From the NCBI GenBank assembly GCA_041649175.1, contig JBAZNR010000001.1, positions 1,103,497-1,167,496 of the forward strand: a stretch of 64,000 nt of DNA, read 5' to 3'. This document shows, piece by piece, positions 50,659 to 64,000 of this stretch. The translations under genes and the position numbers were made by a program. The notes under the pieces were generated by a model. That model ran no database searches. It had not been told where the DNA came from and was given only the letters and a program-made list of their open reading frames with translations. Position 1 is the first letter of the stretch. Each line of letters begins with the position of its first letter. Origin of the DNA: Candidatus Omnitrophota bacterium. Lineage in GTDB: Bacteria; Omnitrophota; Gorgyraeia; Zapsychrales; JBAZNR01.

Positions 50659-51016
50659 TATGGACATTAAAATCTTTTCAGCCATTATTGTTGTTTTGAT
50701 CTTAGGGATGGTCATTGAGCTAGCCCGTCGAGAAAAACTTTCTTTTAAGTATGCGGCAGGATGGTTAACGGTTTCGGTCGCGGGAGTATTTTTTATCATT
50801 TTTGATGATTTTTTAGGGAACATTGCTCATTGGTTTGGCTTTCAGTTGACGAGCAATTTTATTTTCTTTGTTTTGCTGGGGCTTTTTATTTTGCTGAGCC
50901 TTCTGCTGACAACGTTTCTTTGCCAGCAAAATAATCGCAATGACCTTATGGCGCAAAAGATCGGCATTCTAGAGTTAGAAATTGCGCGCTTAAAAGAAAA
51001 ACTTCAAGGTAAGTAA
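50651..51016 (+). CDS. DUF2304-like small membrane protein with a C-terminal coiled coil. These frequently accompany GtrB-like GT2 enzymes
   Basis: Two or three TM helices then LELEIARLKEKLQGK. Adjacency to the GT2. Confidence 0.4.
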   Translation: MNDMDIKIFSAIIVVLILGMVIELARREKLSFKYAAGWLTVSVAGVFFIIFDDFLGNIAHWFGFQLTSNFIFFVLLGLFILLSLLLTTFLCQQNNRNDLMAQKIGILELEIARLKEKLQGK

Positions 51017-51018
51017 TC

Positions 51019-51678
51019 ATGGCAAATCCGCAAAGCGGTGATTGGGAACAATTTTGGAAGACAACAAATCATTACACCGCGCCTAAAATAAGCTGGTCCA
51101 AAAAACGCGTTCTCGACGTTATAAAGCCTTATGTTGTTGCCGGAAAAAATGCCCTAGATGCCGGTTGCGGCAGCGGGTTTTTTGCGAAACACTTTTATGA
51201 TGCCGCAATGGCGACAACCGCCTTGGATTATTCTCCCAAGGCTTTAGAAATAACGCGGCAACTGACTGGCGGTCGTGTTAAGATCATCCAAGAGGATTTG
51301 TTGAAGCCTCATTTATCGTCGAGAATTTCGGAGCGTTTTGACCTAATTTTTTCGGACGGACTTTTTGAACATTTCTTGCCAGGTGAGCAAGATGTCATTA
51401 TGAAAAATTTTATAAGCCTTTTAAATCCCAATGGTGTCGTTGTGACCTTTGTTCCAAACCGTTTTTCCCCTTGGGAGATCATCCGCCCATTTTTTATGCC
51501 CGGAATTGACGAAACTCCTTTTGTCCCAAGAGGTTTAGCGTCTCTTAATGAAAGAAACGGCCTTAAAATCTTAGGTTCTGGCGGTGTTAATGTTCTTCCT
51601 TTTTTTGTTTCTCCGGAGAAGTTTTTAGGAAAATATTTCGGAATGCTGCTCTATACAATTTCTTGCCGCAATGTCTAA
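51019..51678 (+). CDS. Class I SAM-dependent methyltransferase
   Basis: Motif I LDAGCGSGFFAKHF, plus post-I acidic and motif II residues. Confidence 0.7.
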   Translation: MANPQSGDWEQFWKTTNHYTAPKISWSKKRVLDVIKPYVVAGKNALDAGCGSGFFAKHFYDAAMATTALDYSPKALEITRQLTGGRVKIIQEDLLKPHLSSRISERFDLIFSDGLFEHFLPGEQDVIMKNFISLLNPNGVVVTFVPNRFSPWEIIRPFFMPGIDETPFVPRGLASLNERNGLKILGSGGVNVLPFFVSPEKFLGKYFGMLLYTISCRNV

Positions 51679-52672
51679 TTATTCGATCAGTATTGTCATC
51701 CCGGCTTTTAATGCGCAAAAAACCATCGCGCAAGCCATTGATGCCGCGCGTAATCAAGATTATCAAAGGTCCATTGAGATCATTGTTGTTGATGACGGCT
51801 CAACCGATGCGACCGCGCAGATCGCGACATCTTTTGCGGGCGTGAAGTATATTCATCAGAAAAATCTTGGGCCGGCGGTCGCGCGTAATCGCGGATTTAA
51901 AGAATCAAGAGGGGATATTATATTTTTTACGGACTCTGATTGTGTTGCGCAAAACGATTGGGTCAGCCGTTGTGTCGCGCATTTTTCCGACGACAAAATT
52001 GGAGTTGTTTGCGGAACATATGGCATTGTCAATACCCGGAATCTTTTAGCGCAATGCGTTCACGCGGAGATCGTTTTTCGCCATCGCGTGCTTTTGCCGG
52101 ATTTCCCTAAAGCGTTTGGCAGCTATAACTTTTGCGTGAGAAGATCGGTTTTTGAAGGCGTCGGCGGTTTTAATAAACATTATCGTTTTGCCAGCGGGGA
52201 AGACAATGATCTTAGCTATCGAATTCTCCAGATGGGATATAAAATTTATTTTGAGCGAAAAGCCGTCGTTGCCCATCATCATCCGGAACGCGTGATGAAA
52301 TATTTGTCCGAGCAATATCGCCATGGATTCTGGAGAGCTAAGATGTATTTCGATCATCCGCAGATGAGTATCGGCGACGATTATACTTTTTGGAAAGACA
52401 TTGTTGAACCGCCTTTGGCTCTGTTGATCACGCTATTGTTCTTCATAAATACTGCTTTTTTCTGGGCGAATTTGGTATATCTTTACTTATTTTTGGCGGG
52501 TTTATCCGCTTTGATTTTGATCGAATTATTCTATGGATTTATGACCACAAAAAGCTTTTTTAAAGGGGCTTTTTGGACATTAATTATGCTTCTTCGCGCC
52601 TTTGTCCGCATGGCCGGTTTCTCCCTCGGATTTCCCCTCTTTTTTGCCAAAAAAACCTTCCAAAAAAACTAA
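51671..52672 (+). CDS. GT2 glycosyltransferase with a C-terminal membrane anchor region
   Basis: ISIVIPAFNAQKTIAQAIDAA...IIVVDDGSTDAT...FTDSDC, and C-terminal TM helices. Confidence 0.75.
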   Translation: MSNYSISIVIPAFNAQKTIAQAIDAARNQDYQRSIEIIVVDDGSTDATAQIATSFAGVKYIHQKNLGPAVARNRGFKESRGDIIFFTDSDCVAQNDWVSRCVAHFSDDKIGVVCGTYGIVNTRNLLAQCVHAEIVFRHRVLLPDFPKAFGSYNFCVRRSVFEGVGGFNKHYRFASGEDNDLSYRILQMGYKIYFERKAVVAHHHPERVMKYLSEQYRHGFWRAKMYFDHPQMSIGDDYTFWKDIVEPPLALLITLLFFINTAFFWANLVYLYLFLAGLSALILIELFYGFMTTKSFFKGAFWTLIMLLRAFVRMAGFSLGFPLFFAKKTFQKN

Positions 52673-52825: not shown

Positions 52826-53722
52826 ATGTCCTATCATAAACTACTAGGTTTCAACGTCGAACCCTTCTCCACAAGCCCCGATCCCGAATTTTTTTATCTT
52901 ACCCGCGAACACGATATGGCCCTTACCAATATCCTCATTGAACTGCGGTTACGCCGCGGCCTTACTGTTATTTTTGGCGATGTCGGCACCGGAAAAACAA
53001 CGCTTTCACGTAAGCTCGTTCAAGAATTAAAAAACCGCGGCGACATTATTTTTCATATGATCCTCAATCCTTCGTTTGAAAGCGAAGAGCAATTTTTAAC
53101 CTCATTGGTGCGCAACTTTGACGTGGATTATTCTTTTTCTCCTCAGTCCACCATGGCCAATATTCTGGATCTGCGCGATGCCATGGAAAAATTTCTTATT
53201 CAAAAATGCGTGGAAGAAAAACAAACGGTGATCCTTATTATTGATGAGGCGCAAAAATTAAATTTAACGACTCTGGAAGTTTTGCGCGTTCTTTTGAATT
53301 TTGAAACCAATGAATACAAATTGATCCAGCTTGTTTTATTGGGGCAGTTGGAACTTTATCCGAAGATCGTTAACATGCCCAACTTCTTGGACCGGATCAG
53401 TTTTAAATACACCTTAAATCCTTTAGGCCCGCAAGAGACGAAAGAAATGATCGAGTTTCGTATCCGTAAGGCTGGATATAATTCTTCGGCTAAACTTTTC
53501 AATGACGAAGCCATCAGCGAAATTTATACGTATTCGCGCGGTTATCCGCGGCGCATTACCATGTTGTGTCATCAGGCGCTCAAAGAATTAGTTTTACAGA
53601 ACAAGTACATTGTGGACCGCGTGATCATCCGCGATGTGATCGAGAAAGATAGAAAAGCGGAATTTGACCGCGCAGATATCGCGCCCAAAACAACGTATCA
53701 AAAGATCCAAGATATTAGCTGA
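52826..53722 (+). CDS. AAA ATPase of the ExeA/GspA/MshM family (secretion/pilus assembly)
   Basis: Walker A GDVGTGKTTLSRKL, Walker B IILIIDEAQKL. Size and organisation match MshM-type soluble ExeA-like ATPases. Confidence 0.7.
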   Translation: MSYHKLLGFNVEPFSTSPDPEFFYLTREHDMALTNILIELRLRRGLTVIFGDVGTGKTTLSRKLVQELKNRGDIIFHMILNPSFESEEQFLTSLVRNFDVDYSFSPQSTMANILDLRDAMEKFLIQKCVEEKQTVILIIDEAQKLNLTTLEVLRVLLNFETNEYKLIQLVLLGQLELYPKIVNMPNFLDRISFKYTLNPLGPQETKEMIEFRIRKAGYNSSAKLFNDEAISEIYTYSRGYPRRITMLCHQALKELVLQNKYIVDRVIIRDVIEKDRKAEFDRADIAPKTTYQKIQDIS

Positions 53723-53765
53723 TCTTTTAACGCGCAGAACCTGAGCTAAAATTCATTTACACCTT

Positions 53766-54473
53766 ATGGAAAAAAAAGAGACAGCCGAGAAGAAACTTCT
53801 AAAACTTATCGAAAGCTCTGGCTCCAGCGCGGAAGCTAAAACGCCGGCCGCGTCCGATGTGGCTATGCAAGTGGCTGCCGCGGTCAAAGAGACGGGTTTT
53901 TCTGTTCCCAATGCCGCATCTTTCTTGGCTCCCATCCTTGATCTTTTTCGCGGAAAATTTTCCTCAACCGCTAATTCTGTTTTAACCTTTGGCTTAAGAG
54001 AGGCTAATCAGCTTTTGGCAGTTATTGTCGGAGGCTTGCTGATCTTTTCTATTGCCAGTATGGTCAGAGACACAAAAATACTGGAAGAAAGAGTTTTGAC
54101 ATCGGTGAATATCCCCGAAATTGAAAGCGTGGAAAACGATGCGGTTCCGCAGAAAAAAGATGTCTCCGATTATTTGGCATCGGTAGAAAAGCGCAACATC
54201 TTCCAGCCGTTTGAAAAAAAGCCGGAAGAAAAAATTGTCGATGCATCTTCCGGATCGCCGCAGATCGCTACCATTGCTAAAAATTATAAACTCGTTGGGA
54301 TTTCTTGGCTTGACTCTCCGGATTCCGCTTCGGCATTGATCGAAGACACGCAAAGCGGTAATACCTTTTTCTTAAAGAAAGGCGAGAAGATCAGCAACAT
54401 CACTATTAAGGATATTTTTGCGGATCGTGTTATTTTAACCTACCAAGGCGAGGATGTTGCCATAAAGCTATGA
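53766..54473 (+). CDS. Bitopic inner-membrane protein with a C-terminal PilP/GspC-HR-like beta domain. Putative secretin-interacting protein
   Basis: Central TM LLAVIVGGLLIFSIASMV. C-terminus YKLVGISWLDSPDSASALIEDTQSGNTFFLKKGEKISNITIKDIFADRVILTYQGEDVAIKL follows the PilP/GspC pattern. Overlaps the secretin start. Confidence 0.45.
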   Translation: MEKKETAEKKLLKLIESSGSSAEAKTPAASDVAMQVAAAVKETGFSVPNAASFLAPILDLFRGKFSSTANSVLTFGLREANQLLAVIVGGLLIFSIASMVRDTKILEERVLTSVNIPEIESVENDAVPQKKDVSDYLASVEKRNIFQPFEKKPEEKIVDASSGSPQIATIAKNYKLVGISWLDSPDSASALIEDTQSGNTFFLKKGEKISNITIKDIFADRVILTYQGEDVAIKL

Positions 54474-56161
54474 GCCATTCTTTTAAAAAGATCTTTCTTT
54501 CCTTGTGTTTGGCGATAGGCATGTTTTTGTCTGCGCCTTCGTTCATTCTTTCTCAGGATGCCGATAACGGCGCGCCTGCCAATACAGAAAACGCGCAAGA
54601 CGCTCAGTCGGCGCCTTCCAAAGTTGTTCCTGTAAGCCCAACCGATATTCCTAAACCGATCGTGCTTGACGCGCCCAAGGAAACGTTGGAGCAAAGGCTT
54701 CTGCGAAAGATCACTTTAGATGTGCGCGATATGAATATCGTTGATGTGATCAAGTTTTTAGCGCTTAAAGGAGATTTCAATGTGGTGACCAGCCGCAATG
54801 TCGGAGGGCGCGCGACACTCTTTTTAAAGAATGTTTCCATCCGGGACGTTTTGGATATTGTTCTGATTTCCAATAAATTGGCGTATCAGCTTCAAAACGA
54901 TATTGTTTATGTTATGTCGGAAGACGAATATTTAACGATGTATGGCAAGAAATACAATGATAAAAGCGAAGTGGCCATCATCCATTTGTACTATGCCAAG
55001 CCAAGTTATGTTCTAGCAACGCTAGACACGATGAAAAGTGCTTTAGGAAAAGTGATCATTGATGAAGATACGGGCTCGGTGGTCATGATCGATACGCCGC
55101 AAACCATTGCCAATATGAAAAGAGCCATCGATGATATGGAAAGCCCGTTGGAAACCTATATCTATACTTTGCAATATGCCAAGGCCGATGTGATCTCTGA
55201 AAAGTTAAAAGCCCGGGTTGATGCCAATGCCGTTGGTTCTATCACGCCCGATGAACGTTCGAATCAGATCATCGTGCGGGCGCTTCCGGGGCGCCGCGAA
55301 GAAGTGGAGGCGATGATAAAAACCCTGGATGTTAAAACGAAGGAAGTTTTAATTGAGGCGCGCGTCCTGCAAGTTGTTCTAAAGCCGACGTTTAATATGG
55401 GCATTGACTGGAACATGAATTTTACCGATAGCAATGATCCTGAAATTAAAAAATTAACTTTTGGAAATACATTTCTCAATGAGGCGGTTTTAACATCCAG
55501 CAATCCTTTGTCGGCCGCGTTTAGCAAAATTGCTATCGGCAATATTGATGTTGATCATTTTGAATCAGCCATTCGGGCTTTAAAGCAGGTAAGTGATACA
55601 AAAATCCTTTCCAACCCTAAGCTTTTGGTGACCAACAATGAAGAGGCAAAAATTCATATCGGTGACACGATCCCTTATATCATTTCCACAACATCAGGGA
55701 CCGGGGACAATGCCGTTACCAGCGAAGATGTTCGCTTTGTTGACGTGGGCCTCAAGTTGTTAGTAACGCCCGCCATCAACGATGATGGGTTTGTCACCAT
55801 GCGCTTAAAGCCGGAGATCTCAACAGTCGTTGACAAAATAGAATCAAAAGGCGGCGGTATCCCGCAGATCAATAAAACCGAACTTGAAACAACCGTTATG
55901 GTCAAAGACGGCAACACGATCATCATGGGCGGTTTGAAAAAGGATGATAAAACGCATACTAAAAAAGGCTTGCCGTTTTTGATGGATATTCCGTTTTTAG
56001 GCCGGCTTGTCAGTTCAACTTCGGACAGCATTACGTCCACTGAGATCGTTATTTTCATAACACCTCATGTTGTTTCGGGAGAATCAACCTATACAAGCTA
56101 TGACGGGTCGATCAAACCGCTTAAAGACTATGGCGAGATCGAAGATTTGCGCAAGGAATAG
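54470..56161 (+). CDS. Secretin (GspD/PilQ/MshL family outer-membrane channel)
   Basis: Signal peptide. N0/N1-like domains. C-terminal secretin domain with LVTNNEEAKIHIGDTIPYI...GLPFLMDIPFLGRLV. Confidence 0.85.
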   Translation: MSHSFKKIFLSLCLAIGMFLSAPSFILSQDADNGAPANTENAQDAQSAPSKVVPVSPTDIPKPIVLDAPKETLEQRLLRKITLDVRDMNIVDVIKFLALKGDFNVVTSRNVGGRATLFLKNVSIRDVLDIVLISNKLAYQLQNDIVYVMSEDEYLTMYGKKYNDKSEVAIIHLYYAKPSYVLATLDTMKSALGKVIIDEDTGSVVMIDTPQTIANMKRAIDDMESPLETYIYTLQYAKADVISEKLKARVDANAVGSITPDERSNQIIVRALPGRREEVEAMIKTLDVKTKEVLIEARVLQVVLKPTFNMGIDWNMNFTDSNDPEIKKLTFGNTFLNEAVLTSSNPLSAAFSKIAIGNIDVDHFESAIRALKQVSDTKILSNPKLLVTNNEEAKIHIGDTIPYIISTTSGTGDNAVTSEDVRFVDVGLKLLVTPAINDDGFVTMRLKPEISTVVDKIESKGGGIPQINKTELETTVMVKDGNTIIMGGLKKDDKTHTKKGLPFLMDIPFLGRLVSSTSDSITSTEIVIFITPHVVSGESTYTSYDGSIKPLKDYGEIEDLRKE

Positions 56162-56228
56162 CGGATGCGGAATTTTGGAGTCTTGGAAATTTATTTGAAA
56201 CATTTGAAACATGAGGAGATAAAAACGG

Positions 56229-57302
56229 ATGAATAAGGCCACCAATAGATCTAAAAAGGAAAATTTAAGGATTGTTTTGTGCGTAGGAGCCGGCATGGCG
56301 CTCGTGATCGGCGCGCAAGGTGCTCATCTTGGGGCGGCTGTTGAAGATGTCGAAGTGGTAGAAACGGAAATTACTTCCGAGCAGATCTTATCTGATGAAC
56401 AAAACGCTCAAGGTGAAAGACCAGCTGCCGGCGGCAGTGTCAACGATAGCTTAGATGACTTATCGATGGCTGAACGGCAAATGGCGGTGATCAATACGAC
56501 ACTAAAAAATGTGATCGAAGAAAATAAGAAGCTTCTCGATGAGAAAGTTAAGATTGAAAATGAACTGAAAGAATTACGCGGTCAAACTGAGATCCGCGCG
56601 AGCCGCCTGAACACCTTAACGCGCCAGCGAGATGAATTAGAAAAGCGAATTACGGACACGGAGGAAGCTCAGGGGCAATATGCGTTAGAAATTGAACAGC
56701 TCAAAAAAGACCTTGCGGACAAAGAAAAGGAGCTGACCGAGAAATTAACGACTATGCAGGAGGCGCAGGCGAAAGAAAAAGAAGAGCAAGAAAAGGCCAT
56801 GGCGATGGTTTTGCCGGGGCAAAAAGATGCCGCGGCCGTAGCGGAGTCGAAAAAACAGCTTCAAGATATTAAAATGCAGGCCAAGGAAACATTAAATAGC
56901 GTGGAAGATAATGTCAAAAGAATTGCCGGGCAGATCTCTGAGCTTAATTTGGAAAATAAAAAGCTCAAGCAGGATTCGGTCAAGCTTCACTACAATATGG
57001 GGAATAATTATTTTGAACAGGGAAAATATAAAAAGGCGGCCGCCGAATATCAGCGGGTCATTGACTTAACGCCTAACGATGCGGCGGCGCATTATAATTT
57101 GGCGTTTGTCGCTAGTGAATTCTTAAAAGATCAAAAACTCGCTTTGGAACATTATCAGCAGTATTTATATCTTAGCCCGGATGCGGAAGATGCGCTTTTG
57201 GTGAAAGAGAAAATATTGCATGCGCAGCTAACACTTAAAACTCAAATTGACTCGGTGATCGAAGAAAAACCTAAGAAAATAAAAGCGGCAAAAGATAAAT
57301 AG
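56229..57302 (+). CDS. Membrane-anchored coiled-coil protein with C-terminal TPR repeats (MshN-like)
   Basis: N-terminal TM. Long heptad-rich segment. TPR-like YNMGNNYFEQGKYKKAAAEYQRVIDLTPNDAAAHYNLAFV. Confidence 0.55.
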   Translation: MNKATNRSKKENLRIVLCVGAGMALVIGAQGAHLGAAVEDVEVVETEITSEQILSDEQNAQGERPAAGGSVNDSLDDLSMAERQMAVINTTLKNVIEENKKLLDEKVKIENELKELRGQTEIRASRLNTLTRQRDELEKRITDTEEAQGQYALEIEQLKKDLADKEKELTEKLTTMQEAQAKEKEEQEKAMAMVLPGQKDAAAVAESKKQLQDIKMQAKETLNSVEDNVKRIAGQISELNLENKKLKQDSVKLHYNMGNNYFEQGKYKKAAAEYQRVIDLTPNDAAAHYNLAFVASEFLKDQKLALEHYQQYLYLSPDAEDALLVKEKILHAQLTLKTQIDSVIEEKPKKIKAAKDK

Positions 57303-57306
57303 TTTT

Positions 57307-59037
57307 TTGGATTTTTTTATGACGCAATTTATCAAGAAATTTTTCTTGTTGAAAATGGACTTTGGGCGAAAAGCCCCGAAAACGGGGCTTTTCGCCCCGA
57401 TTTTCCTTTTTTCTTTCTGCCTTTGGTCTTTGGTCTTTAGTCTTTGGCCTGCTGCGCCTGTCCTCGCCAATAATCTTGCGATCTCCAATGTCACCATGAG
57501 CACCCGTGATCCGGCTAATGACACTTTTATTCTACAATTTGATGTTTCTTGGAATAATTCTTGGCGCAACAAGATCAATCACGATGCCGTTTGGCTGTTT
57601 GTTAAAGTCGATACCGGCACAGCGCCGTATTCTCATTGCTTGATGAAAACTTCCGGCGCCAGCCCAACAGGATTTTCCGCAGGCTCAGACTCGGATCTGG
57701 CGATCTATGTTCCAACGGATAAAATGGGCGCGTTTTTACGGCCTTCAGCGTCTCAAGCTATGGGAAATATCTCAACAACAAGTGTCCAACTAAAGGTAGA
57801 TTACGGCGCTAGTAGCTGCAACATCGCGGATACCGCCAGCATCACGCCTTACGTTTACGGCATTGAAATGGTCTTTGTTCCAACGGGTTCGTTTTACGCT
57901 GGAGATTTTCCAACTTCGAGTAGCGCATTTAGGCAGGGCTCTGCAGATGCCGATCCTTGGTATATCACGAGCGAGGGAACTATTGCTGTCCAAAATGTAG
58001 CGTCTGATGGGTATTATTATAAAAATTCCGGCTACATAACTCCTCCTAATGAATTCTCCGATGGAACGGTTTTTACTATCCCTGCTGTTTTTCCTAAGGG
58101 TTACGCGGCTTTTTATGCCATGAAATATGAATTGACCGAAGGGCAATGGGTAAGTTTTTTTAACACGCTTACAACAGATCAAAAAAATACTCTGGATATA
58201 ACGGGCAATGTTACAAACATGGGGATTGTACTCGGTGGAAAAAATTCTGATAGCTTAATATACCGCAACACGGTTAGTTGGGATTCCGGAACGCCCACAG
58301 TGGCCGCTGTAACAACCCGAGGTGATCGTGCCATGAGCTACATTTCATGGGTTGATCTTTGTGCTTATTTGGATTGGGCAGGTCTACGTCCAATGACAGA
58401 ATTGGAATATGAAAAACTTGCTCGTGGTCCGGTTATTCCCGTGCGAGATGAGTATGCCTGGGGTAGCACAGATTTTGTAAAAGCTGTGACAATTTTGACG
58501 GCCATAGGCTCTGAGGACGGCGCGGAAACGATCACAACCACGGACGGAGTTACGCACGCAAACATATTTGTTCCTCCGGTTGGAGGTTCGGCTTACGTGG
58601 GGGGAGACGACTACATCGGAACGCATGGCGCCAGCGGGCCGTTGAGGGCAGGCATTTTTGCTACTGCCACGTCAGACCGAGTGATGAGCGGAGCTGGCTA
58701 TTATGGAGCGATGGAATTAAGCGGGAATTTAAAAGAGATGGTCGTAACTGTTGCGAGCACTGTTGGAATTGGATTTATTGGCAATCACGGAGATGGGGCA
58801 TTGACTAGTGGTGGTTGTTACGGTTGTGCTGATGTTACCGGCTGGGTACAGCTTACAGGCGCAGGAATTATCCTCGGCAGTGGTTCTGGTACCCGAGGCG
58901 GCGGGTGGGGGTCTCCGGTAGCGGGTGGTGACGAAAAAACAATTTCCTATCGCGGCCTTTGGATATCTGGTTATTCAACCAATACCAGATCTCCTGCTAT
59001 GGGCGGGCGCGGTGTTCGCACATATGATGGCAGTTAA
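57307..59037 (+). CDS. Secreted FGE/SUMF1-fold (formylglycine-generating-enzyme family) domain protein, paralog A
   Basis: Signal peptide ending VLA|NN. FGE-sulfatase domain blocks VFVPTGSFYAGD, FYAMKYELTEGQWVSFFN and VSYISWVDLCAYLDWAGLRPMTELEYEKLARG. TTG start; the true start is uncertain. Confidence 0.65.
   Translation: MDFFMTQFIKKFFLLKMDFGRKAPKTGLFAPIFLFSFCLWSLVFSLWPAAPVLANNLAISNVTMSTRDPANDTFILQFDVSWNNSWRNKINHDAVWLFVKVDTGTAPYSHCLMKTSGASPTGFSAGSDSDLAIYVPTDKMGAFLRPSASQAMGNISTTSVQLKVDYGASSCNIADTASITPYVYGIEMVFVPTGSFYAGDFPTSSSAFRQGSADADPWYITSEGTIAVQNVASDGYYYKNSGYITPPNEFSDGTVFTIPAVFPKGYAAFYAMKYELTEGQWVSFFNTLTTDQKNTLDITGNVTNMGIVLGGKNSDSLIYRNTVSWDSGTPTVAAVTTRGDRAMSYISWVDLCAYLDWAGLRPMTELEYEKLARGPVIPVRDEYAWGSTDFVKAVTILTAIGSEDGAETITTTDGVTHANIFVPPVGGSAYVGGDDYIGTHGASGPLRAGIFATATSDRVMSGAGYYGAMELSGNLKEMVVTVASTVGIGFIGNHGDGALTSGGCYGCADVTGWVQLTGAGIILGSGSGTRGGGWGSPVAGGDEKTISYRGLWISGYSTNTRSPAMGGRGVRTYDGS
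57365..57396 (+). terminator. Perfect 14-bp hairpin GGCGAAAAGCCCCG-AAAA-CGGGGCTTTTCGCC followed by a T-rich run. Terminator-like, embedded in the 5' coding region of FGE-like paralog A
   Basis: Seen directly. 63 nt after the upstream stop. It overlaps codons for the signal-peptide n-region (GRKAPKTGLFAP). Confidence 0.5.
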
Positions 59038-59063
59038 AAAACAGGGTTTAGTGTTTAGGAATT

Positions 59064-60704
59064 ATGCTTAGGTTTCAAGATATGAGAAAAACGTTTTCTA
59101 TTTTTTTTCTTTGGTCTTTCGTCTTTAGTCTTTTGTCTATTGTGCCTGCTTTTGCCAACAACTTACAGATTGCTAACTTTTATGATTACAGCACCGACAC
59201 CTCTGCCAACACTATGACTTTCACCTTTAATGTCACGCAAGACAATAGCTGGAGAAACGCCACCAATTATGATGCTGTATGGATGTTTATGAAGTATTCA
59301 ACCGATGGCGGAGCTAGTTGGAATCATGGCAGCATGTCCGCATCCGGCACTAATCCAACAGGCTTTAACGCGCCTACCGGATTTGAAATAAAAGTCCCGG
59401 CGGATGAAAAAGGATTTTTCTTGCAAAGAACCGATCTTGCCGCGGGAAGCATTTCCGCCTCAGGTGTTCGCGTAGTCTGGGATTATGGCCAAGATGGGCT
59501 GTCGGATGCGACCGCACAAGCCGGCAATACAACCTTGAAAATTTTTGGGCTAGAAATGGTTTATATTCCTGAAGGATCGTTTTATGCGGGGGATGCGAGC
59601 GGCGGCAATTTAACGGCAGTATTAAAGCAAGGTAGTGCCGATGAAGATTCTTGGTATATTGCAAGCGAAAATGCAATAAATGCCACAAACGCATCGGCAG
59701 ACGGATATTATTATTTCAGTGCGGGGCAAAATGATGAAGATGTAGACGGAGCTACCTTTCTTATTCCCGCTCAATTTCCTAAAGGTTATCAGGCATTTTA
59801 CTTGATGAAATATGAGCTGACTGAAGGCCAGTGGGTGTCATTTTTTAATACGTTAACGACTGACCAAAAAACGATCCGCGATATTACGAGTTCAACAGCA
59901 GGCGGAAAAAATTCCGATGCAGTTATCTTAAGAAACACAATTAGCTGGGATTCAGCTTCGCCTTTAAAAAATGCTAAGACAACCCGCCCCGATAGAGCGG
60001 TTTCTTATATCGGCTGGCCCGATATTTGCGCCTATGCCGACTGGGCTGCGCTTCGTCCTTACACGGAGTTAGAGTTTGAAAAAGCCGCCAGAGGCGCAGG
60101 TATTACTGCAGTATCGGGTGAATACGCTTGGGGTAATACAACGATTACAGCCGCGGCTACTTTTTCCGGAACTCCGGAAAATGGAACTGAAACAATCGCA
60201 ACGGCAAGCGCTAATGCTAACTACAACAATACGGCTTTTAGTCTTGGCGACGACTACTTAGGTGTTCAATATACCCGCGGGCCTGTTCGTGTAGGAATTT
60301 TTGCGACAAGCGTTTCAACGCGGACGACTGCCGGTACTGGATATTATGGCAATATGGAGTTGTCAGGAAATCTCTGGGAGCCGACGGTTACGGTAGGAAA
60401 TTCCTGGGGACGAGTATTTTTAGGAACCCACGGCGATGGAACGTTGACAACTTTAGCCAGCTATGAAGGCAATGCGACAAATTTAGATTGGCCAGGCTTT
60501 AATTCAGCTAATCCAACGCGGGGTGTTAACGGAACTAAAGGAAGCGGTTACAAAGGCGGTGGTTTTGAGACGGACTCCTTTGAAAGGCTTGGCACATCAA
60601 GCCGAAGAAAAGTTGCTGCAAATGCGGAAAGCGACGCGAGCACAAGCTACAGGTCTCATGGCGGACAATTTTTTGCCGGCAGGTTAGCTCGCACGGCAGA
60701 TTGA
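59064..60704 (+). CDS. Secreted FGE/SUMF1-fold domain protein, paralog B (tandem duplicate of A)
   Basis: Same blocks as A (MVYIPEGSFYAGD, FYLMKYELTEGQWVSFFNTLTTDQK, VSYIGWPDICAYADWAALRPYTELEFEKAARG). Homologous signal peptide ending AFA|NN. Confidence 0.65.
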   Translation: MLRFQDMRKTFSIFFLWSFVFSLLSIVPAFANNLQIANFYDYSTDTSANTMTFTFNVTQDNSWRNATNYDAVWMFMKYSTDGGASWNHGSMSASGTNPTGFNAPTGFEIKVPADEKGFFLQRTDLAAGSISASGVRVVWDYGQDGLSDATAQAGNTTLKIFGLEMVYIPEGSFYAGDASGGNLTAVLKQGSADEDSWYIASENAINATNASADGYYYFSAGQNDEDVDGATFLIPAQFPKGYQAFYLMKYELTEGQWVSFFNTLTTDQKTIRDITSSTAGGKNSDAVILRNTISWDSASPLKNAKTTRPDRAVSYIGWPDICAYADWAALRPYTELEFEKAARGAGITAVSGEYAWGNTTITAAATFSGTPENGTETIATASANANYNNTAFSLGDDYLGVQYTRGPVRVGIFATSVSTRTTAGTGYYGNMELSGNLWEPTVTVGNSWGRVFLGTHGDGTLTTLASYEGNATNLDWPGFNSANPTRGVNGTKGSGYKGGGFETDSFERLGTSSRRKVAANAESDASTSYRSHGGQFFAGRLARTAD

Positions 60705-60721
60705 GTTTTTAGAAATAAATA

Positions 60722-63700
60722 ATGAACTTATTAAATAAAATTTTCCAAAACAGGAATCAAAAAGATGAAAGGCGAAAAAATGCCTATAGGCATTTTTTCG
60801 CCCCATTCGTCTTTTCATTTCTTGTGTCTTTGGTCTTTGGCCTCTGGTCTCCTCTGACTGCTTTCGCCCAATACACCGGTGGCAGTTATGACGGCGGCGC
60901 CGACACGACTTTAGGCGATAATATTACAACCGGCGGTTCCTATGACGGTTTTTCCAGCGGTGCGTCGTCAGCTGGCTATGCCGGTCAGGGCGCTCCCAGC
61001 TACGTTTCCTTTTCCAATACCGTTCCTACAACTCAGCGTAACAGCTATTTTAATCCTCAGCCTAAGCTCCTTTTAAAAGACGCCGCCGGAAATACCATTA
61101 CCCATGGCACCTGGTCTGATGATACGGTAACCCTTTCTATTTATAATAATCCTTCCAACGGCACGCTTTCTGGTACAACCGGTATTACCTTTACGTCCGG
61201 CATTGCCGGCTTCACTTATCAGGGCCTTCGTATTGATAATCCCGGTGAGCTTTATACGCTTAAAGCAACCTTGCAGTCCGACACAACGATTGTCGGAACT
61301 TCCAATAGTTTTGATATTCTTAGCGGTGAATTTGTCCTCAAGTCGGCGGTCTTGCCCTTTGCCAGCTATCCTGAATCTCGTAAAGTTGTAGTCTGGCTAG
61401 AAGATCCGGTGGGTAATATCGTTACCCTTAATACAGTAGGCACTCCTTCCGGTAGCGTTGCAATTTATAGCGATGACGGCACATACAATTCGGATTGCGG
61501 AACTAGCGCTAACGAAGATTGCTCAGCAGGAAATATAGGCTTGGAGCCTCTTGCTGATGCAGATGGCACAACACGGACTGTTCAATATCCGGCAACTGAT
61601 CAATCTGGAGCCTATGGCACCAAAGCCTGGCGGCCGGATTTTACAAAATCCTATCGGTATCGTGCAACATTAACGGCAAATGGCGCGACATACACCGGCA
61701 TGTTTGATTATACGCCGCCCGAAGAATTTTCTGTTAAGACAGCGATCTTGGATTCTACCGGGAGCGGTAAATTTGCTCCGCAAGCCTGGATAGAAATTGA
61801 TGGCCAAAGAGTCACCTTCGATGCAAGCCGCCCTGACTCTGCGACAGTGACGATCACCGATGCTCAGGGATTAGGAGCAGTTGGTGATTGCGGTGGTGGC
61901 AGTTGCACTGCCATTGACATGACTTTGGACGCCGATATTTTTTATTATTATTTTTGGGAACCTGCCGATTTCTTAACTGGCTATCGCGGAAAAGTAGAGA
62001 TCACCTATGCGTATCATACCTATACGACCTATGCGACCTATGATCCTAGTTCATACTACATGGGGACTCTGCAAGGCAGCTTAGATACTATCGCAGCCAA
62101 AACCAACACCATCAACTGGACCAATATTACCGACATTAAATCCGCCACCGATACTATCAATTGGACCAATGTTACCGATATTAAATCTGCTACCGACACC
62201 ATTAATTGGCTTGATGTCGGCGTTTTAACATCCGGTACGGCGGCTATTCAAGCGGTCACCGATCTTTTATCTCCCATCAACTGGGATGATGTCGAAGTTC
62301 TCACCAAACAAGGGATTAACTGGGCTGACTTTGACCGTATGTCGGATGTCGGTATTAATTGGGAAGATTTGTATGTGTTGTCATCCGCCGGGATTAATTG
62401 GTCTGACCTAGATATCCTTTCGGACGCCGGTGTCAATTGGATGGACATTGATGTTTTATCGGACTCTGGAATTAATTGGTCTGATTTAGACGCATTTTCT
62501 GACGCGGGTATTAACTGGCTAGATATCGATATCCTAGCTGATGCGCTTATTAATTGGGACGACTTAGCCTTTATGGCGTCTGCCGGTGTTAACTGGTTTG
62601 ATGTCGCCTACATGAGCGGAGTGGGGACAAATTGGACATACGCCATTAATTGGGACAGCTTAGCCGAGTTAACAACAGCGGCTGTGAACTGGGCGGATAT
62701 GACGGTAATGTCCAGCGCTGGGCTCAATTGGTATGACCTGGAAGTGATGACCGATGCCGGAGTGAACTGGGAAGACGTGGGCGTTTTAAGCGCTACGGGC
62801 ATTAACTGGGTTGATTTGGATATCCTTTCAGATGCTGGCGTAAACTGGGGTGACTTAGATGTGCTTTCCAATACCGGTATCAACTGGCTTGATTTTGATG
62901 TGCTTTCTGACGCCGGCATCAACTGGATCGATTTGGATAAACTGTCAGATGCCGGTATCAATTGGGTGGATTTTGACAGTCTGTCCGATTCAGGTATTAA
63001 TTGGATTGATTTGGATATTTTGTCCGATGCAGGTGTTAAATGGGCTGACTTTGCCACTCTGACCAACGCCGGGATCAACTGGGTCGATTTGGATAAACTG
63101 TCAGATGCGGGCATTGCATGGTCTGACTTTTCCACTCTATCCAAGGCCGGTATCAATTGGGCGGATTTTGATATTTTGTCGGATGCGGGGATCAATTGGG
63201 TGGATTTGGATAAGTTTTCTGATGCCGGTATTAACTGGCTTGATATCGACATCCTCGCGGATAAGGGAATTAATTGGCTAGACTTGGACGTCCTATCCGA
63301 TGCGGGGATCAATTGGCTGGATATCGATACGATTTCAAATACTGGCATCAACTGGGTTGATTTTGACGTCTTATCCGATGCGGGAGTTAATTGGTCAAAT
63401 TTAGGCGCGCTTTCCGAAGCCGGCATAAACTGGACAGATTTGAATGTTCTCTCCGAGACCGGCATCAATTGGCTGGATCTGGATGTCTTGACCAATACGG
63501 GAATCAACTGGATTGACTTAGATGCGCTGGCAGATGCCGGGATCAATTGGTCGGACATCGATGTTATTTCCAAAACGGGTATCAATTGGAATGACTTGGA
63601 CATCCTCTCTGATGCAGGCATCAACTGGAGTGACTTGGACACCTTATCTAAGGCCGGTATCAATTGGTCGGACTTGGACGTCCTCTCTGATACGGGTATT

Positions 63701-64000
63701 AACTGGAGTGATTTGGATGTCTTATCTAAGACAGGCATTAATTGGAGCGATATTGACGTTCTTTCCGATGCGGGGGTCAACTGGCTGGATATCGACATCC
63801 TCTCTGACATCGGTATCAATTGGTCGGACTTGGACATCCTCTCTGACACCGGCATCAATTGGTCGGATCTGGACACCTTATCTAAAGCCGGTATCAACTG
63901 GAGCGACCTGGACGTCCTTTCTGATACAGGTATTAATTGGAGTGATTTGGATGTCTTATCTAAGACCGGTATCAATTGGAGCGATATTGACGTTCTATCC
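60722..64000 (+). CDS. Very large secreted protein, 3' partial: the frame is open to the window end at more than 1090 codons. A ~460 aa non-repetitive N-terminal region is followed by at least 45 tandem 13-residue repeats G-I-N-W-x-D-[LIF]-D-x-L-S-D-[AT]
   Basis: Manual translation from the ATG at 60722 shows no stop through 64000. Signal peptide homologous to those of the two FGE paralogs (AFA|QY). The ORF track lists no complete frame-0 ORF, consistent with read-through. Confidence 0.6.
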   Translation, partial: MNLLNKIFQNRNQKDERRKNAYRHFFAPFVFSFLVSLVFGLWSPLTAFAQYTGGSYDGGADTTLGDNITTGGSYDGFSSGASSAGYAGQGAPSYVSFSNTVPTTQRNSYFNPQPKLLLKDAAGNTITHGTWSDDTVTLSIYNNPSNGTLSGTTGITFTSGIAGFTYQGLRIDNPGELYTLKATLQSDTTIVGTSNSFDILSGEFVLKSAVLPFASYPESRKVVVWLEDPVGNIVTLNTVGTPSGSVAIYSDDGTYNSDCGTSANEDCSAGNIGLEPLADADGTTRTVQYPATDQSGAYGTKAWRPDFTKSYRYRATLTANGATYTGMFDYTPPEEFSVKTAILDSTGSGKFAPQAWIEIDGQRVTFDASRPDSATVTITDAQGLGAVGDCGGGSCTAIDMTLDADIFYYYFWEPADFLTGYRGKVEITYAYHTYTTYATYDPSSYYMGTLQGSLDTIAAKTNTINWTNITDIKSATDTINWTNVTDIKSATDTINWLDVGVLTSGTAAIQAVTDLLSPINWDDVEVLTKQGINWADFDRMSDVGINWEDLYVLSSAGINWSDLDILSDAGVNWMDIDVLSDSGINWSDLDAFSDAGINWLDIDILADALINWDDLAFMASAGVNWFDVAYMSGVGTNWTYAINWDSLAELTTAAVNWADMTVMSSAGLNWYDLEVMTDAGVNWEDVGVLSATGINWVDLDILSDAGVNWGDLDVLSNTGINWLDFDVLSDAGINWIDLDKLSDAGINWVDFDSLSDSGINWIDLDILSDAGVKWADFATLTNAGINWVDLDKLSDAGIAWSDFSTLSKAGINWADFDILSDAGINWVDLDKFSDAGINWLDIDILADKGINWLDLDVLSDAGINWLDIDTISNTGINWVDFDVLSDAGVNWSNLGALSEAGINWTDLNVLSETGINWLDLDVLTNTGINWIDLDALADAGINWSDIDVISKTGINWNDLDILSDAGINWSDLDTLSKAGINWSDLDVLSDTGINWSDLDVLSKTGINWSDIDVLSDAGVNWLDIDILSDIGINWSDLDILSDTGINWSDLDTLSKAGINWSDLDVLSDTGINWSDLDVLSKTGINWSDIDVLS
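60771..60802 (+). terminator. Perfect 14-bp hairpin GGCGAAAAAATGCC-TATA-GGCATTTTTTCGCC in the 5' coding region of the repeat-protein gene. Analogous to the hairpin in paralog A
   Basis: Seen directly. 67 nt after the upstream stop. Same outer stem GGCGAAAA/TTTTCGCC as at 57365, with compensatory inner changes. Confidence 0.45.
62100..64000 (+). repeat. 39-bp (13-codon) in-frame tandem repeat array encoding GINWxDLDxLSDA units. Continues beyond the window
   Basis: Visible periodicity of ggtatcaattggtcggacttggacgtcctctctgat-type units. It also creates a spurious long antisense ORF. Confidence 0.8.

What the first reader, a model, noticed from the sequence alone, without database searches (positions are those of the whole stretch)
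52826..64000. Secretin/MshM-like outer-membrane module with three leader-sharing secreted cargo genes
Four co-oriented genes encode an ExeA/MshM-type AAA ATPase, a PilP/GspC-like bitopic protein, a secretin and a TPR coiled-coil protein. This matches the MSHA/T2SS outer-membrane sub-complex (MshM-K-L-N). No pilin, GspE/PilB or GspF/PilC gene lies within the window. Immediately downstream are three large secreted-protein genes (two FGE-fold paralogs and a giant 13-aa-repeat protein). Their N-terminal leaders are homologous at the DNA level (ctttggtctttggtctttagtctttggcc / ctttggtctttcgtctttagtctt / ctttggtctttggcctctggtct, encoding LWSLVFSLW / LWSFVFSLL / LVSLVFGLW, each ending in an AxA signal-peptidase site). 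A duplicated, dedicated leader next to a secretin suggests a specialised export or surface-display system whose substrates are these proteins. A GT2-DUF2304-MT-GT2 module sits directly upstream.
Basis: partly seen in the sequence, partly recalled or inferred. Interest (0 to 1): 0.8.

Follow-up and report, generated by a model that had tools for sequence, protein, structure and literature searches.

The report
Omnitrophota secretin cluster with giant repeat protein
This is the front half of a gene cluster conserved across the uncultured phylum Omnitrophota, in which the outer-membrane part of a pilus/type II secretion-like machine sits next to two secreted FGE-fold proteins and a very long secreted protein built from hundreds of 13-residue repeats; the shared "leader" that drew attention is peculiar to this one genome and is not a sorting signal.

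Summary
Pfam and NCBIfam confirm an AAA_22/ExeA-like ATPase, a T2SSC-like bitopic protein, a secretin and a TPR/coiled-coil protein. Two FGE-fold paralogues and a 13-residue-repeat protein follow, and a GT2-DUF2304-MT-GT2 module lies upstream. A 67-nt leader repeat occurs only at the three gene starts.

In 64 other Omnitrophota genomes the three leaders are no more alike than chance, so there is no dedicated leader. Here the leader is a tandem heptamer (CTTTGGT)n, with strong hairpins in two of the three copies.

The genes are nevertheless tightly linked. The secretin lies upstream of the FGE pair in 60 of 63 informative loci. The repeat protein lies downstream in 59 of 60, often open for more than 3,300 aa.

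The module is not stand-alone. Complete loci of relatives continue with a membrane-anchored coiled-coil protein, F-type ATP synthase genes, an MshE/GspE-like ATPase with PilZ, then GspF or PilMN and PilO. This matches the "F-type ATPase/T4aP loci" of Seymour et al. 2023.

My best reading is Sec export followed by secretin-dependent surface display of a giant fibre. This is inferred, not shown.

The parts
49567..49935 (+). Small membrane protein with an ATP-synthase delta (OSCP) C-terminal-like domain. It lies directly upstream of the cluster; whether it belongs to the cluster is uncertain.
   Evidence: PF00213 E=2e-9. NCBIfam delta-subunit hits are below cutoff. Also called in L205 and L206 and weakly detectable in 9 further loci.
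49942..50658 (+). GT2 glycosyltransferase (short type).
   Evidence: PF00535, 86.8 bits. Present upstream in 48 of 57 informative loci.
50651..51016 (+). DUF2304 small membrane protein.
   Evidence: PF10066, 72.9 bits. Present in 46 of 57 loci.
51019..51678 (+). SAM-dependent methyltransferase.
   Evidence: Methyltransf_25/11. Present in only 19 of 57 loci.
51671..52672 (+). GT2 glycosyltransferase with C-terminal membrane segments.
   Evidence: PF00535, 126.6 bits. Present in 47 of 57 loci.
52826..53722 (+). ExeA/MshM-type AAA_22 ATPase, 298 aa, with no peptidoglycan-binding domain.
   Evidence: PF13401, 79.9 bits. TIGR03015 scores 184.5 bits, below its cutoff of 324.5. Present in 26 of 61 loci.
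53766..54473 (+). Bitopic GspC/PilP-like protein with one hydrophobic segment and a C-terminal T2SSC (HR) region.
   Evidence: PF11356, 28.3 bits against a cutoff of 27. GspC equivalogs are far below cutoff. Present in 59 of 63 loci.
54470..56161 (+). Secretin, 563 aa.
   Evidence: PF00263, 169.9 bits, with Secretin_N x2 and a weak STN hit. Equally similar to solved GspD and PilQ structures, E 1e-35 to 1e-32. Below the PilQ, GspD and MshL cutoffs. Present in 60 of 63 loci at a median 61% identity.
56229..57302 (+). Protein with an N-terminal hydrophobic segment, a probable long coiled coil and one TPR block.
   Evidence: TPR_11, 49.5 bits. The coiled coil rests only on sub-threshold matches to CCDC22_CC, SMC and Rad50; no coiled-coil prediction was run. 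Present in 58 of 63 loci.
57364..57397 (+). Perfect 15-bp-arm GC-rich hairpin inside the n-region codons of the FGE1 leader, followed by a U-rich tract.
   Evidence: RNA fold -37 kcal/mol, z = -6.9. Far below the local background of its own locus, unlike almost all other genomes.
57407..57473 (+). Leader repeat copy 1, with (CTTTGGT)n encoding LWSLVFSLW.
57319..59037 (+). FGE1: a Sec-exported protein with an N-terminal beta-sandwich and an FGE-sulfatase-fold domain. The start codon is uncertain (57307, 57319 or 57355).
   Evidence: PF03781, 34.7 bits. Gene call in L001. Two FGE paralogues are present in 71 of 74 loci.
59095..59161 (+). Leader repeat copy 2, without a hairpin.
59082..60704 (+). 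FGE2: a paralogue of FGE1 at 48% identity. It is identical to P0001, annotated as a SUMF1/EgtB/PvdO family protein from Candidatus Omnitrophota.
   Evidence: PF03781, 47.8 bits. 2114 homologues, the best 120 at 52-73% identity. No invariant Cys in a 30-sequence alignment. AF2 N-terminal domain pLDDT 75-95.
60771..60802 (+). Perfect 32-nt palindrome (16-bp arms) inside the n-region codons of the repeat-protein leader. It shares the outer arms GGCGAAAA/TTTTCGCC with the FGE1 hairpin.
   Evidence: RNA fold -31.2 kcal/mol, z = -8.2.
60807..60873 (+). Leader repeat copy 3.
60722..64000 (+). Rep: a Sec-exported protein with a roughly 450-aa non-repeat head followed by 13-residue repeats, G-[IV]-N-W-x-D-[LIF]-D-x-L-S-[DK]-[AT]. 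It runs off the window.
   Evidence: No credible Pfam family. Orthologous ORFs stay open for more than 3,300 aa and more than 220 repeats in 14 loci.
62798..64000 (+). Strictly regular 39-nt array with higher-order periods of 78, 117 and 234 nt. Less regular repeats begin near 62100.

Best explanation
The region is the upstream half of a supercluster conserved across Omnitrophota.

Gene order in the window:
1. A glycosyltransferase module (GT2, DUF2304, methyltransferase, GT2).
2. The outer-membrane and periplasmic sub-complex of a type IV filament machine, MSHA/T2SS-like. It consists of an ExeA/MshM-like ATPase, a GspC/PilP-like connector, a secretin and a TPR protein with a probable coiled coil.
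3. Two Sec-exported FGE-fold paralogues.
4. A Sec-exported, very long, acidic protein. It has a lineage-variable N-terminal head, tens to hundreds of 13-residue G-[IV]-N-W-x-D repeats and, in relatives, a conserved helical C-terminal domain.

In relatives the cluster continues with a coiled-coil protein carrying a C-terminal membrane anchor, whose gene abuts or overlaps the end of the repeat gene. F-type ATP synthase genes follow. The inner-membrane parts of the filament machine come last: an MshE/GspE-like ATPase with PilZ, then GspF, or PilM-N and PilO.

Likely mechanism (inferred): the three proteins cross the inner membrane by Sec and are cut by signal peptidase I. The repeat protein, and perhaps the FGE-fold proteins, then pass the outer membrane through this secretin. 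This is the route T2SS substrates encoded next to their secreton take. The product would be a long surface fibre or adhesin with a variable tip. The FGE-fold proteins lack the FGE catalytic cysteines, so they more likely bind or build structure than make formylglycine.

The shared leader is a recent local feature of this genome, a tandem heptamer with a hairpin in two of the three copies. It is not a targeting signal.
For: Shown:
- Domain assignments.
- Standard Sec/SPI leaders with conserved mature N-termini in orthologues.
- Synteny. The secretin is present in 60 of 63 loci, GspC-like in 59 of 63, TPR in 58 of 63, two FGE genes in 71 of 74 and Rep downstream in 59 of 60, across species-representative genomes.
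- The Rep ORF stays open for more than 3,300 aa in 14 loci.
- The repeat consensus holds over 2,500 units from 13 genomes. Asn is at position 3 in essentially all units; Trp at position 4 was the criterion used to pick the units.
- Complete loci L204 and L206, and the partial L201/L203, show Rep, the anchored coiled-coil protein, F-type ATP synthase genes, then PilZ/PilMN/PilO or MshEN-T2SSE-PilZ/T2SSF.
- L204 shares the window's upstream genes gcvP, lplA and the EF-hand protein.
- The cassette between the TPR gene and Rep varies: an FGE pair here, three small secreted paralogues in L206, nothing in L204. The Rep head also varies while the repeats and C-terminus are kept.
- The downstream protein has a C-terminal hydrophobic segment (read from its sequence). 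Its coiled coil is my reading of that sequence; no prediction was run.
- No T1SS genes and no autotransporter-type barrel appear in the loci. The secretin is the only outer-membrane channel in the cluster.

From the literature: F-type ATPase/T4aP co-located loci occur in every Omnitrophota class (PMC10066038).
Against: - No experiment, expression data or proteomics links Rep or the FGE proteins to the secretin. Conserved gene order does not prove a substrate relationship.
- The 78 genome loci were retrieved with FGE2 as bait, so they cannot show how often the secretin module occurs without the FGE pair. L204 and L206 show that it does.
- No pilin or pseudopilin gene was seen in any stretch I could read.
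- The ExeA-like ATPase is absent from 35 of 61 loci.
- The structure models are weak. The Rep repeats have pLDDT 40-55 and the FGE domain is below 50, so the fibre shape is not established.
- ATP synthase alpha and beta pass the ordinary atpA and atpD cutoffs. Their place in the cluster may be only positional.
Confidence: 0.5

Rival explanations
1. The four genes are simply the PilQ/PilP-type part of an ordinary type IVa (MSHA-like) pilus machine that assembles pilins encoded elsewhere. The FGE pair and the repeat protein are conserved neighbours that do not pass through the secretin. They might be periplasmic or envelope proteins, or reach the surface another way.
For: PilM-PilN, PilO-like, MshE/PilB-like and GspF/PilC-like genes lie in the same cluster in relatives. 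The secretin scores highest against the PilQ model. Seymour et al. report T4aP in nearly all Omnitrophota and call these loci T4aP loci (PMC10066038).
Against: No pilin genes appear in about 50 kb of cluster sequence read in L204 and L206. Rep follows the secretin module in 59 of 60 loci, and in L204, L205 and L206 even without the FGE genes. Rep has a Sec leader, and no other outer-membrane route is encoded nearby.
Confidence: 0.28
2. The FGE-fold paralogues are not cargo. They are periplasmic maturation factors, either enzymes or chaperones, that modify or fold the repeat protein, or they are ring-forming structural parts of the machine as PorK/GldK are in the T9SS.
For: The FGE-sulfatase domain is detected in both. 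Both paralogues are ancient and kept side by side (71 of 74 loci) directly upstream of Rep. Many residues are invariant, including His, Asp and Glu. FGE-fold lipoproteins GldJ, GldK and PorK are known structural parts of a secretion or motility machine (my own knowledge).
Against: There is no invariant Cys, so the FGE copper site is absent. No NCBIfam hit to GldJ or GldK appears at E<0.01. Rep loci exist without them (L204, L206). The model of the FGE domain is poor.
Confidence: 0.3
3. One reading: a stand-alone secretin-only export system that recognises a dedicated N-terminal leader shared by its three substrates.
For: The leader DNA is shared by the three genes and occurs nowhere else in the window.
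Against: The leader is not shared in 64 other genomes. Orthologues have unrelated h-regions. A probable fourth copy sits on a solitary FGE2-like gene far from any secretin, on a contig of the same sample with tetranucleotide correlation 0.968. GspE/F-type and PilMNO-type genes exist in relatives' clusters.
Confidence: 0.04
4. The cluster exports a glycan (an EPS or PEP-CTERM-type system). On this view the GT2 genes and the TIGR03015-like ATPase are the core and the secretin is the polysaccharide channel.
For: The ATPase's best NCBIfam hit is the XrtA/PEP-CTERM-associated ATPase. A GT2-DUF2304-GT2 module is conserved upstream.
Against: The score is far below the family cutoff (184.5 against 324.5). 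No exosortase, Wza/Wzc or flippase genes are present. No PEP-CTERM tail is seen on FGE1, FGE2 or the Rep C-termini. Secretins are not known glycan channels (my own knowledge). The ATPase is absent from more than half of the loci.
Confidence: 0.04

Closest known systems
Vibrio MSHA pilus cluster (MshI-J-K-L-M-N-E-G-F)
   Same: It has an ExeA-like ATPase (MshM), a PilP-like protein (MshK), a secretin (MshL) and a TPR protein (MshN) in one block. In relatives there is an assembly ATPase carrying an MshE-type c-di-GMP N-terminal motif, plus a platform protein.
   Different: The secretin is below the MshL cutoff (185.5 against 250.2). No pilin genes were seen. The machine genes are split by a giant repeat gene, an anchored coiled-coil protein gene and an F-type ATP synthase operon. 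The ATPase carries an extra PilZ domain.
Type II secretion systems with adjacent substrate genes (for example Klebsiella pul secreton and pulA)
   Same: The neighbours are Sec-dependent with SPI leaders. The machine has a GspC-like HR-domain protein, a secretin, and GspE/GspF-like genes in relatives. Putative cargo is encoded next to the machine.
   Different: GspC, GspD and GspE all score below the equivalog cutoffs. Pseudopilins were not found. The putative cargo is a fibre-like protein of over 3,000 aa rather than a globular enzyme.
[quoted passage not shown] 2023, PMC10066038)
   Same: This is very probably the same supercluster. L204 and L206 link the window's gene set to ATP synthase subunits and PilZ/PilMN/PilO or MshE/GspF genes.
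   Different: The main text of that paper mentions neither the FGE-fold pair, the 13-residue-repeat protein nor the ExeA/GspC/TPR genes. Here alpha and beta pass the ordinary atpA and atpD cutoffs.
Giant Omnitrophota proteins with an upstream T2SS-like locus (West-Roberts et al. 2023, bioRxiv 10.1101/2023.11.21.568195)
   Same: A very long, repeat-rich, probably surface-located protein is encoded next to secretion or pilus genes in Omnitrophota.
   Different: Those loci have gspD/E/F, rcpC and a rotamase. Their proteins have C39/S8 peptidase, SecA-like, HEAT or dockerin/TSP3 domains and many transmembrane helices. None of these is detected in the window's part of Rep.
Formylglycine-generating enzyme / SUMF1 family
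   Same: Pfam FGE-sulfatase domain. Profile matches to solved FGEs cover the conserved RPxxPVxxVSWxDAxAY...W core.
   Different: There is no conserved cysteine pair. The proteins have an extra N-terminal beta-sandwich and long insertions, and they carry a secretion signal.

Membership tests
Secretin superfamily (PF00263) | C-terminal secretin domain scoring above the Pfam gathering score, with N-domains. | tested here: met
   169.9 bits against 27.5. Secretin_N 76 bits. Matches to solved GspD and PilQ at E about 1e-35.
GspD / PilQ / MshL equivalogs (NCBIfam) | Whole-protein score above the curated cutoff. | tested here: not met
   PilQ 257.5 against 284.35. GspD 227 against 351.35. MshL 185.5 against 250.2.
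ExeA/MshM-type AAA ATPase | AAA_22 P-loop domain in a roughly 300-aa protein encoded next to a secretin. | tested here: met
   PF13401, 79.9 bits. Adjacent to the GspC-like and secretin genes.
XrtA/PEP-CTERM system-associated ATPase (TIGR03015) | Score above the cutoff of 324.5 and an exosortase or PEP-CTERM context. | tested here: not met
   184.5 bits. No PEP-CTERM tails or exosortase in the window or loci.
GspC / PilP (T2SSC HR domain) | Bitopic protein with an HR domain. GspC equivalog cutoffs are 150 and 101.6. | tested here: inconclusive
   Pfam T2SSC 28.3 against 27, just met. The equivalogs score 27.5 and 17.3, not met. In L205 the orthologue has no Pfam hit.
MSHA-type type IV pilus system | MshE ATPase with MshEN domain, platform protein, PilMNO-like proteins and MshA-type pilins in the cluster. 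| tested here: inconclusive
   Not in the window. In relatives: MshEN+T2SSE+PilZ and T2SSF (L206), PilM/N and PilO-like (L204). No pilins were seen, and the stretches read end there.
Type II secretion system | GspE, GspF and pseudopilins GspG-K together with GspC and GspD. | tested here: inconclusive
   The GspE model scores 579 against 630 in L206. T2SSF is present. Pseudopilins were not found in the sequence read.
Formylglycine-generating enzyme (catalytic) | FGE-sulfatase fold plus the conserved copper-binding cysteine pair. | tested here: not met
   The domain is present, but there is no invariant or near-invariant Cys among 30 family members.
Family-specific dedicated leader or sorting signal | The leader motif is conserved in orthologous substrates of other genomes that carry the same machine. 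| tested here: not met
   Within-genome identity 0.376 against a background of 0.363 in 64 genomes. Only this genome is an outlier. The h-regions are unrelated.
Archaeovorin or dockerin-type giant proteins | C39/S8 peptidase, SecA-like, HEAT or dockerin/TSP3 domains and many transmembrane helices. | tested here: not met
   Pfam finds none of these in Rep residues 1-1092. P0127 has only Ig_Rha78A_N.

The most novel reading that the evidence does not exclude
The cluster encodes a previously undescribed kind of surface appendage: one giant polypeptide threaded through a type IV filament-type secretin.

- The fibre has a variable head, hundreds of 13-residue repeats and a helical C-terminal base.
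- Its base is held at the inner membrane by the anchored coiled-coil protein encoded at the end of the repeat gene.
- It is assembled or moved by the co-clustered MshE-like ATPase, PilMNO proteins and possibly the atypically ordered F-type ATPase.

This would be a non-pilin fibre used by ultra-small Omnitrophota to attach to or move on host cells.
Probability: 0.12. Interest if true: 0.9.

Novelty: new variant of a known kind. Interest (0 to 1): 0.6.

Why it matters
Omnitrophota are widespread, mostly uncultured, ultra-small bacteria thought to live on other cells. How they attach is unknown.

This cluster is one of the most conserved multi-gene arrangements I could see in the phylum. It ties a secretin machine to a very long secreted repeat protein with a variable head. 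That makes the protein a concrete candidate for the attachment fibre.

The 13-residue repeat has no Pfam family, and the FGE-fold pair is annotated only generically. Short-read assemblies usually break inside the repeat gene, so it is under-reported.

If the link holds, it extends what secretin and type IV filament machines are known to handle. It also gives defined targets for proteomics and cryo-ET in Velamenicoccus cultures.

Tried and rejected
1. The leader as a sorting signal. I rejected this after anchoring 194 leaders at their cleavage sites in 65 genomes.

2. A metagenome scan for the leader DNA. It returned more than 120 hits. All are (GGTCTTT)n simple repeats in short, mostly non-coding contexts, and none lies next to cluster genes. 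The scan was uninformative, except for showing that the motif is low-complexity.

3. A conserved 5' RNA structure. Energies at the 5' ends of FGE1, FGE2 and Rep in the other genomes do not differ from local background, with mean rank fractions of 0.74, 0.48 and 0.51. The first attempt at this timed out.

4. Structure of FGE2 from a 30-sequence alignment. Only the N-terminal beta-sandwich was confident. The Foldseek search of the PDB gave no hit at E<=0.001, only generic adhesin or CBM-like sandwiches.

5. A self-alignment of shifted repeat windows as an MSA. MAFFT placed the rows in their true overlapping register, so it was useless.

6. Structure of the repeats plus C-terminal domain from P0276. 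The model shows a 9-residue helix and a 4-residue turn per repeat, but pLDDT is 40-55, so the fold stays open. I did not run a fold search on it.

7. Word-indexed homologue searches with the Rep head and the repeats. They found only 6 and 20 proteins. The exhaustive HMMER search worked better.

8. Extending L204 downstream by looking up a locus-encoded protein.

9. A PEP-CTERM/EPS reading. I rejected it (see rivals).

Full report
**What is in the sequence**

The window is the last 64 kb of a 1.23-Mb contig from a Candidatus Omnitrophota metagenome assembly (ENA ERZ27247363, k141_2258133). The contig ends 1,107 nt past the window.

From 49942 to the end, all genes lie on the + strand with short or overlapping junctions.
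- GT2, DUF2304, a methyltransferase and a second GT2 (49942-52672).
- An AAA_22 ExeA/MshM-like ATPase (52826-53722).
- A bitopic protein with a marginal T2SSC hit (53766-54473).
- A secretin (54470-56161).
- A TPR protein (56229-57302). Its probable coiled coil rests only on sub-threshold matches to coiled-coil families.
- Two FGE-sulfatase-fold paralogues, 48% identical (57319-59037 and 59082-60704).
- A repeat protein starting at 60722.

None of the machine proteins reaches an NCBIfam equivalog cutoff. The secretin scores 257 against PilQ (cutoff 284), 227 against GspD (cutoff 351) and 186 against MshL (cutoff 250). The ATPase scores 184 against the PEP-CTERM-associated ATPase (cutoff 324).

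The rest of the window is housekeeping: ftsK, riboflavin and fatty-acid genes, ligA, the dcw cluster and the glycine cleavage genes. It holds no pilin, GspE or GspF gene.

**The leader observation**

With up to 3 mismatches the motif occurs only at these three gene starts in 64 kb, against 0 expected by chance. A 67-nt repeat family covers the h- and c-regions of all three leaders, at 75% and 64% identity.

The repeat core is a tandem heptamer, (CTTTGGT)3-4. Because 7 is not a multiple of 3, the repeat reads as L-W-S-L-V-F-G with a 21-nt period. Each leader ends in a normal signal-peptidase I site.

Directly upstream lie perfect palindromes, inside the codons of the n-region of FGE1 and of the repeat protein. 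They are at 57364-57397 and 60771-60802. They share the outer arms GGCGAAAA/TTTTCGCC but differ, complementarily, inside. They fold at -37 and -31 kcal/mol (z = -6.9 and -8.2) and are followed by U-rich tracts. FGE2 has no such hairpin.

**Is the leader a dedicated signal? No**

I retrieved 78 loci from species-representative genomes. I anchored the leaders of FGE1, FGE2 and the repeat protein at their cleavage sites.
- Within-genome DNA identity of the leaders averages 0.376.
- Between-genome background averages 0.363 (sd 0.06, maximum 0.636).
- Only this genome stands out, at 0.70 for FGE1 against FGE2. The copy in the repeat gene is 64% identical to FGE1's.

Orthologues have unrelated h-regions. 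They conserve the residues just after the cut: A-N-N-L-x-I-x-N in the FGE proteins and A-Q-[YF]-[ST]-G-G in the repeat protein.

Strong 5' RNA structure is also not general.

A metagenome scan for the leader DNA returned more than 120 hits. All are simple (GGTCTTT)n repeats in short, mostly non-coding contexts.

A fourth gene carries the same leader type. It is a solitary FGE2-like gene, 73% identical, flanked by gshA/gshB and an ABC transporter. It lies on another contig of the same sample whose tetranucleotide profile matches the window (r = 0.968, against 0.985 for the window against itself).

The leader module is therefore a recent, local feature of this lineage. It probably spread by duplication or conversion between 5' ends. 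It is not a sorting signal.

**Linkage of the genes**

The comparative data strongly support a functional link, though not through the leader.
- Secretin within 4.5 kb upstream of the FGE pair: 60 of 63 loci.
- GspC-like gene: 59 of 63.
- TPR gene: 58 of 63.
- Two FGE paralogues: 71 of 74.
- Repeat gene immediately downstream: 59 of 60.
- GT2-DUF2304-GT2: about 47 of 57.
- S41 peptidase further upstream: 49 loci.

The ExeA-like ATPase (26 of 61) and the methyltransferase (19 of 57) are each missing from a large share of the loci, usually from the same loci.

One caveat applies. These loci were found with FGE2 as bait, so they cannot show how often the module occurs without the FGE pair.

**The repeat protein**

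The window holds a signal peptide, a head of about 450 aa, and then 13-residue units. The head contains a domain that recurs 10-34 times in many other very long proteins.

The repeat region is acidic (pI about 4.05) and 7.8% Trp. Over 2,500 units from 13 genomes the consensus is G-[IV]-N-W-x-D-[ILF]-x-V-[LM]-[ST]-x-[AT]. Asn at position 3 is essentially invariant; Trp at position 4 was the criterion used to pick the units. Pfam has no family for this repeat.

As assembled, the gene ends at an apparent frameshift 831 nt past the window. The repeats go on in another frame to the contig end.

In 14 other genomes the ORF is still open after 10 kb, at more than 3,300 aa and more than 220 repeats. 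Most contigs break inside it.

Complete examples are 2,809 aa (L204) and 1,292 aa (L206). Both end in a conserved helical domain of about 250 aa...K[ST]WFE..E.

AlphaFold gives a 9-residue helix plus a 4-residue turn per repeat, but only at pLDDT 40-55. The C-terminal domain comes out as long helices at pLDDT 60-80. The fold of the repeat is not settled.

**What follows the repeat gene in relatives**

Three independent loci show the continuation.
1. A protein of about 430-460 aa with a signal peptide, apparently coiled-coil segments (judged from its sequence) and a C-terminal membrane anchor. Its start overlaps or abuts the end of the repeat gene.
2. F-type ATP synthase genes in an unusual order: alpha, epsilon, a small ORF, c, a small ORF, b/delta, gamma, beta. 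No a subunit is seen.
3. Either PilZ, a PilM-PilN fusion and a PilO/T2SS-M-like protein (L204), or a 740-aa MshEN-T2SSE-PilZ ATPase and T2SSF (L206).

L204 shares the window's upstream genes gcvP, lplA and the EF-hand protein. Its secretin is 62% identical and its ATPase 69% identical to the window's. The window's genome very likely continues the same way beyond the contig end.

[quoted passage not shown] Alpha and beta here pass the ordinary atpA and atpD cutoffs, so I do not claim a special motor.

The cassette between the TPR gene and the repeat gene varies. It is the FGE pair here, three small secreted paralogues in L206, and nothing in L204. The head of the repeat protein varies too: Ig-like here, beta-helix-like repeats in L204 (my reading of the sequence), LamG in L206.

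**The FGE-fold proteins**

The family has more than 2,000 members, and all that carry a name are annotated as Omnitrophota. It shows the conserved FGE core motif. It has no invariant cysteine, so it lacks the catalytic copper site of true FGEs.

The N-terminal 140 aa form a confident beta-sandwich with no specific structural match. The proteins may be binding or structural proteins, maturation factors for the repeat protein, or co-secreted cargo. I cannot separate these possibilities.

**Most likely mechanism**

Shown: Sec-type leaders, the domain content, and the conserved order of the genes.

Inferred: after Sec export, the secretin machine carries the repeat protein to the cell surface. This is the route T2SS substrates encoded next to their secreton take. 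The C-terminal base stays near the envelope, and the variable head points outward as an adhesin.

The upstream GT2/DUF2304/GT2 module and a weak PMT_2-like GT-C protein at 40162-42270 suggest glycosylation of an envelope component. This is speculative.

I put about 0.5 on this reading. I put about 0.28 on the rival that the machine is an ordinary pilus apparatus and the repeat protein only a neighbour.

**Comparison and novelty**

The closest known systems are:
- the MSHA pilus cluster;
- T2SS with adjacent substrate genes;
- the Omnitrophota F-ATPase/T4aP loci of Seymour et al.;
- the T2SS-like loci next to giant genes of West-Roberts et al. Those have gspD/E/F, rcpC and a rotamase, and their giant proteins carry peptidase, SecA-like, HEAT or dockerin domains. 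That is a different locus and a different kind of protein.

In the papers I could search, I found no description of three things: the secretin sub-complex with ExeA-like, GspC-like and TPR genes; the FGE-fold pair; and the 13-residue-repeat protein.

I rate the finding a new variant of a known kind, with interest 0.6. The leader argument that motivated it is wrong. It nevertheless points at a real, conserved and largely uncharacterised cluster.

Noticed in passing
window 57364-57397 and 60771-60802: Two perfect palindromes lie inside signal-peptide n-region codons. They share outer arms but have different, mutually complementary inner arms, and each is followed by a U-rich tract. They look like intrinsic terminators or attenuators placed 62-67 nt after the preceding stop codon. 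In the RNA-folding comparison with the other loci, only this genome's FGE1 and Rep 5' ends stand far below local background.
   Followed up: partly
metagenome loci L081-L200: The heptamer array (GGTCTTT)n, read as GLWSLVFGLW, is a widespread short tandem repeat in unrelated metagenome contigs, mostly in tiny ORFs. Its reverse complement reads ...KDQRPKT.... Its origin is unexplained.
   Followed up: partly
L001 15640-16026 (window about 64720-65107): The repeat gene stops at an apparent frameshift, and the same repeats continue in another frame to the contig end. This is probably an assembly error or collapse inside the array.
   Followed up: partly
window 49567-49935; L204 19859-25409; L206 15342-21351: A small membrane protein with an ATP-synthase delta-like C-terminus precedes the cluster. 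In relatives an F-type ATP synthase operon in unusual order (alpha, epsilon, c, b/delta, gamma, beta, with no a subunit seen) sits between the repeat gene and the inner-membrane pilus genes.
   Followed up: partly
L206 8057-9880: Three tandem paralogous secreted proteins of about 190 aa, with no family hit, occupy the place of the FGE pair. In L204 that place is empty, and the repeat protein has a different head of about 1,200 aa.
   Followed up: partly
L027 11831-11859, L068 11813-11841, L052 4732-4758: AT-rich perfect palindromes with 12-13-bp arms fall in the signal-peptide h-region of the repeat gene and encode TFIITLIINV. They are not energetic outliers, and their meaning is unknown.
   Followed up: partly
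L002 10001-11623 (contig k141_2245591, same sample): A solitary FGE2-like gene, 73% identical, carries the same heptamer-type leader. It lies between glutathione synthesis genes and an ABC transporter. The contig's tetranucleotide profile matches the window (r = 0.968), so it is probably from the same genome.
   Followed up: partly
window 40162-42270: A 702-aa membrane protein has a weak PMT_2 (GT-C glycosyltransferase) hit. It could use a lipid-linked sugar made by the GT2/DUF2304 pair.
   Followed up: no
window 47787-48191: A small secreted EF-hand protein lies upstream. It is also upstream in L204, L205 and six further loci, so the conserved neighbourhood extends to gcvP, lplA, this EF-hand protein and the S41 peptidase.
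   Followed up: partly
P0283, P0285: Two proteins of 350-370 aa, each starting with an apparent signal peptide, contain irregularly spaced G-I-N-W-x-D motifs. The motif therefore also exists outside the giant arrays.
   Followed up: no
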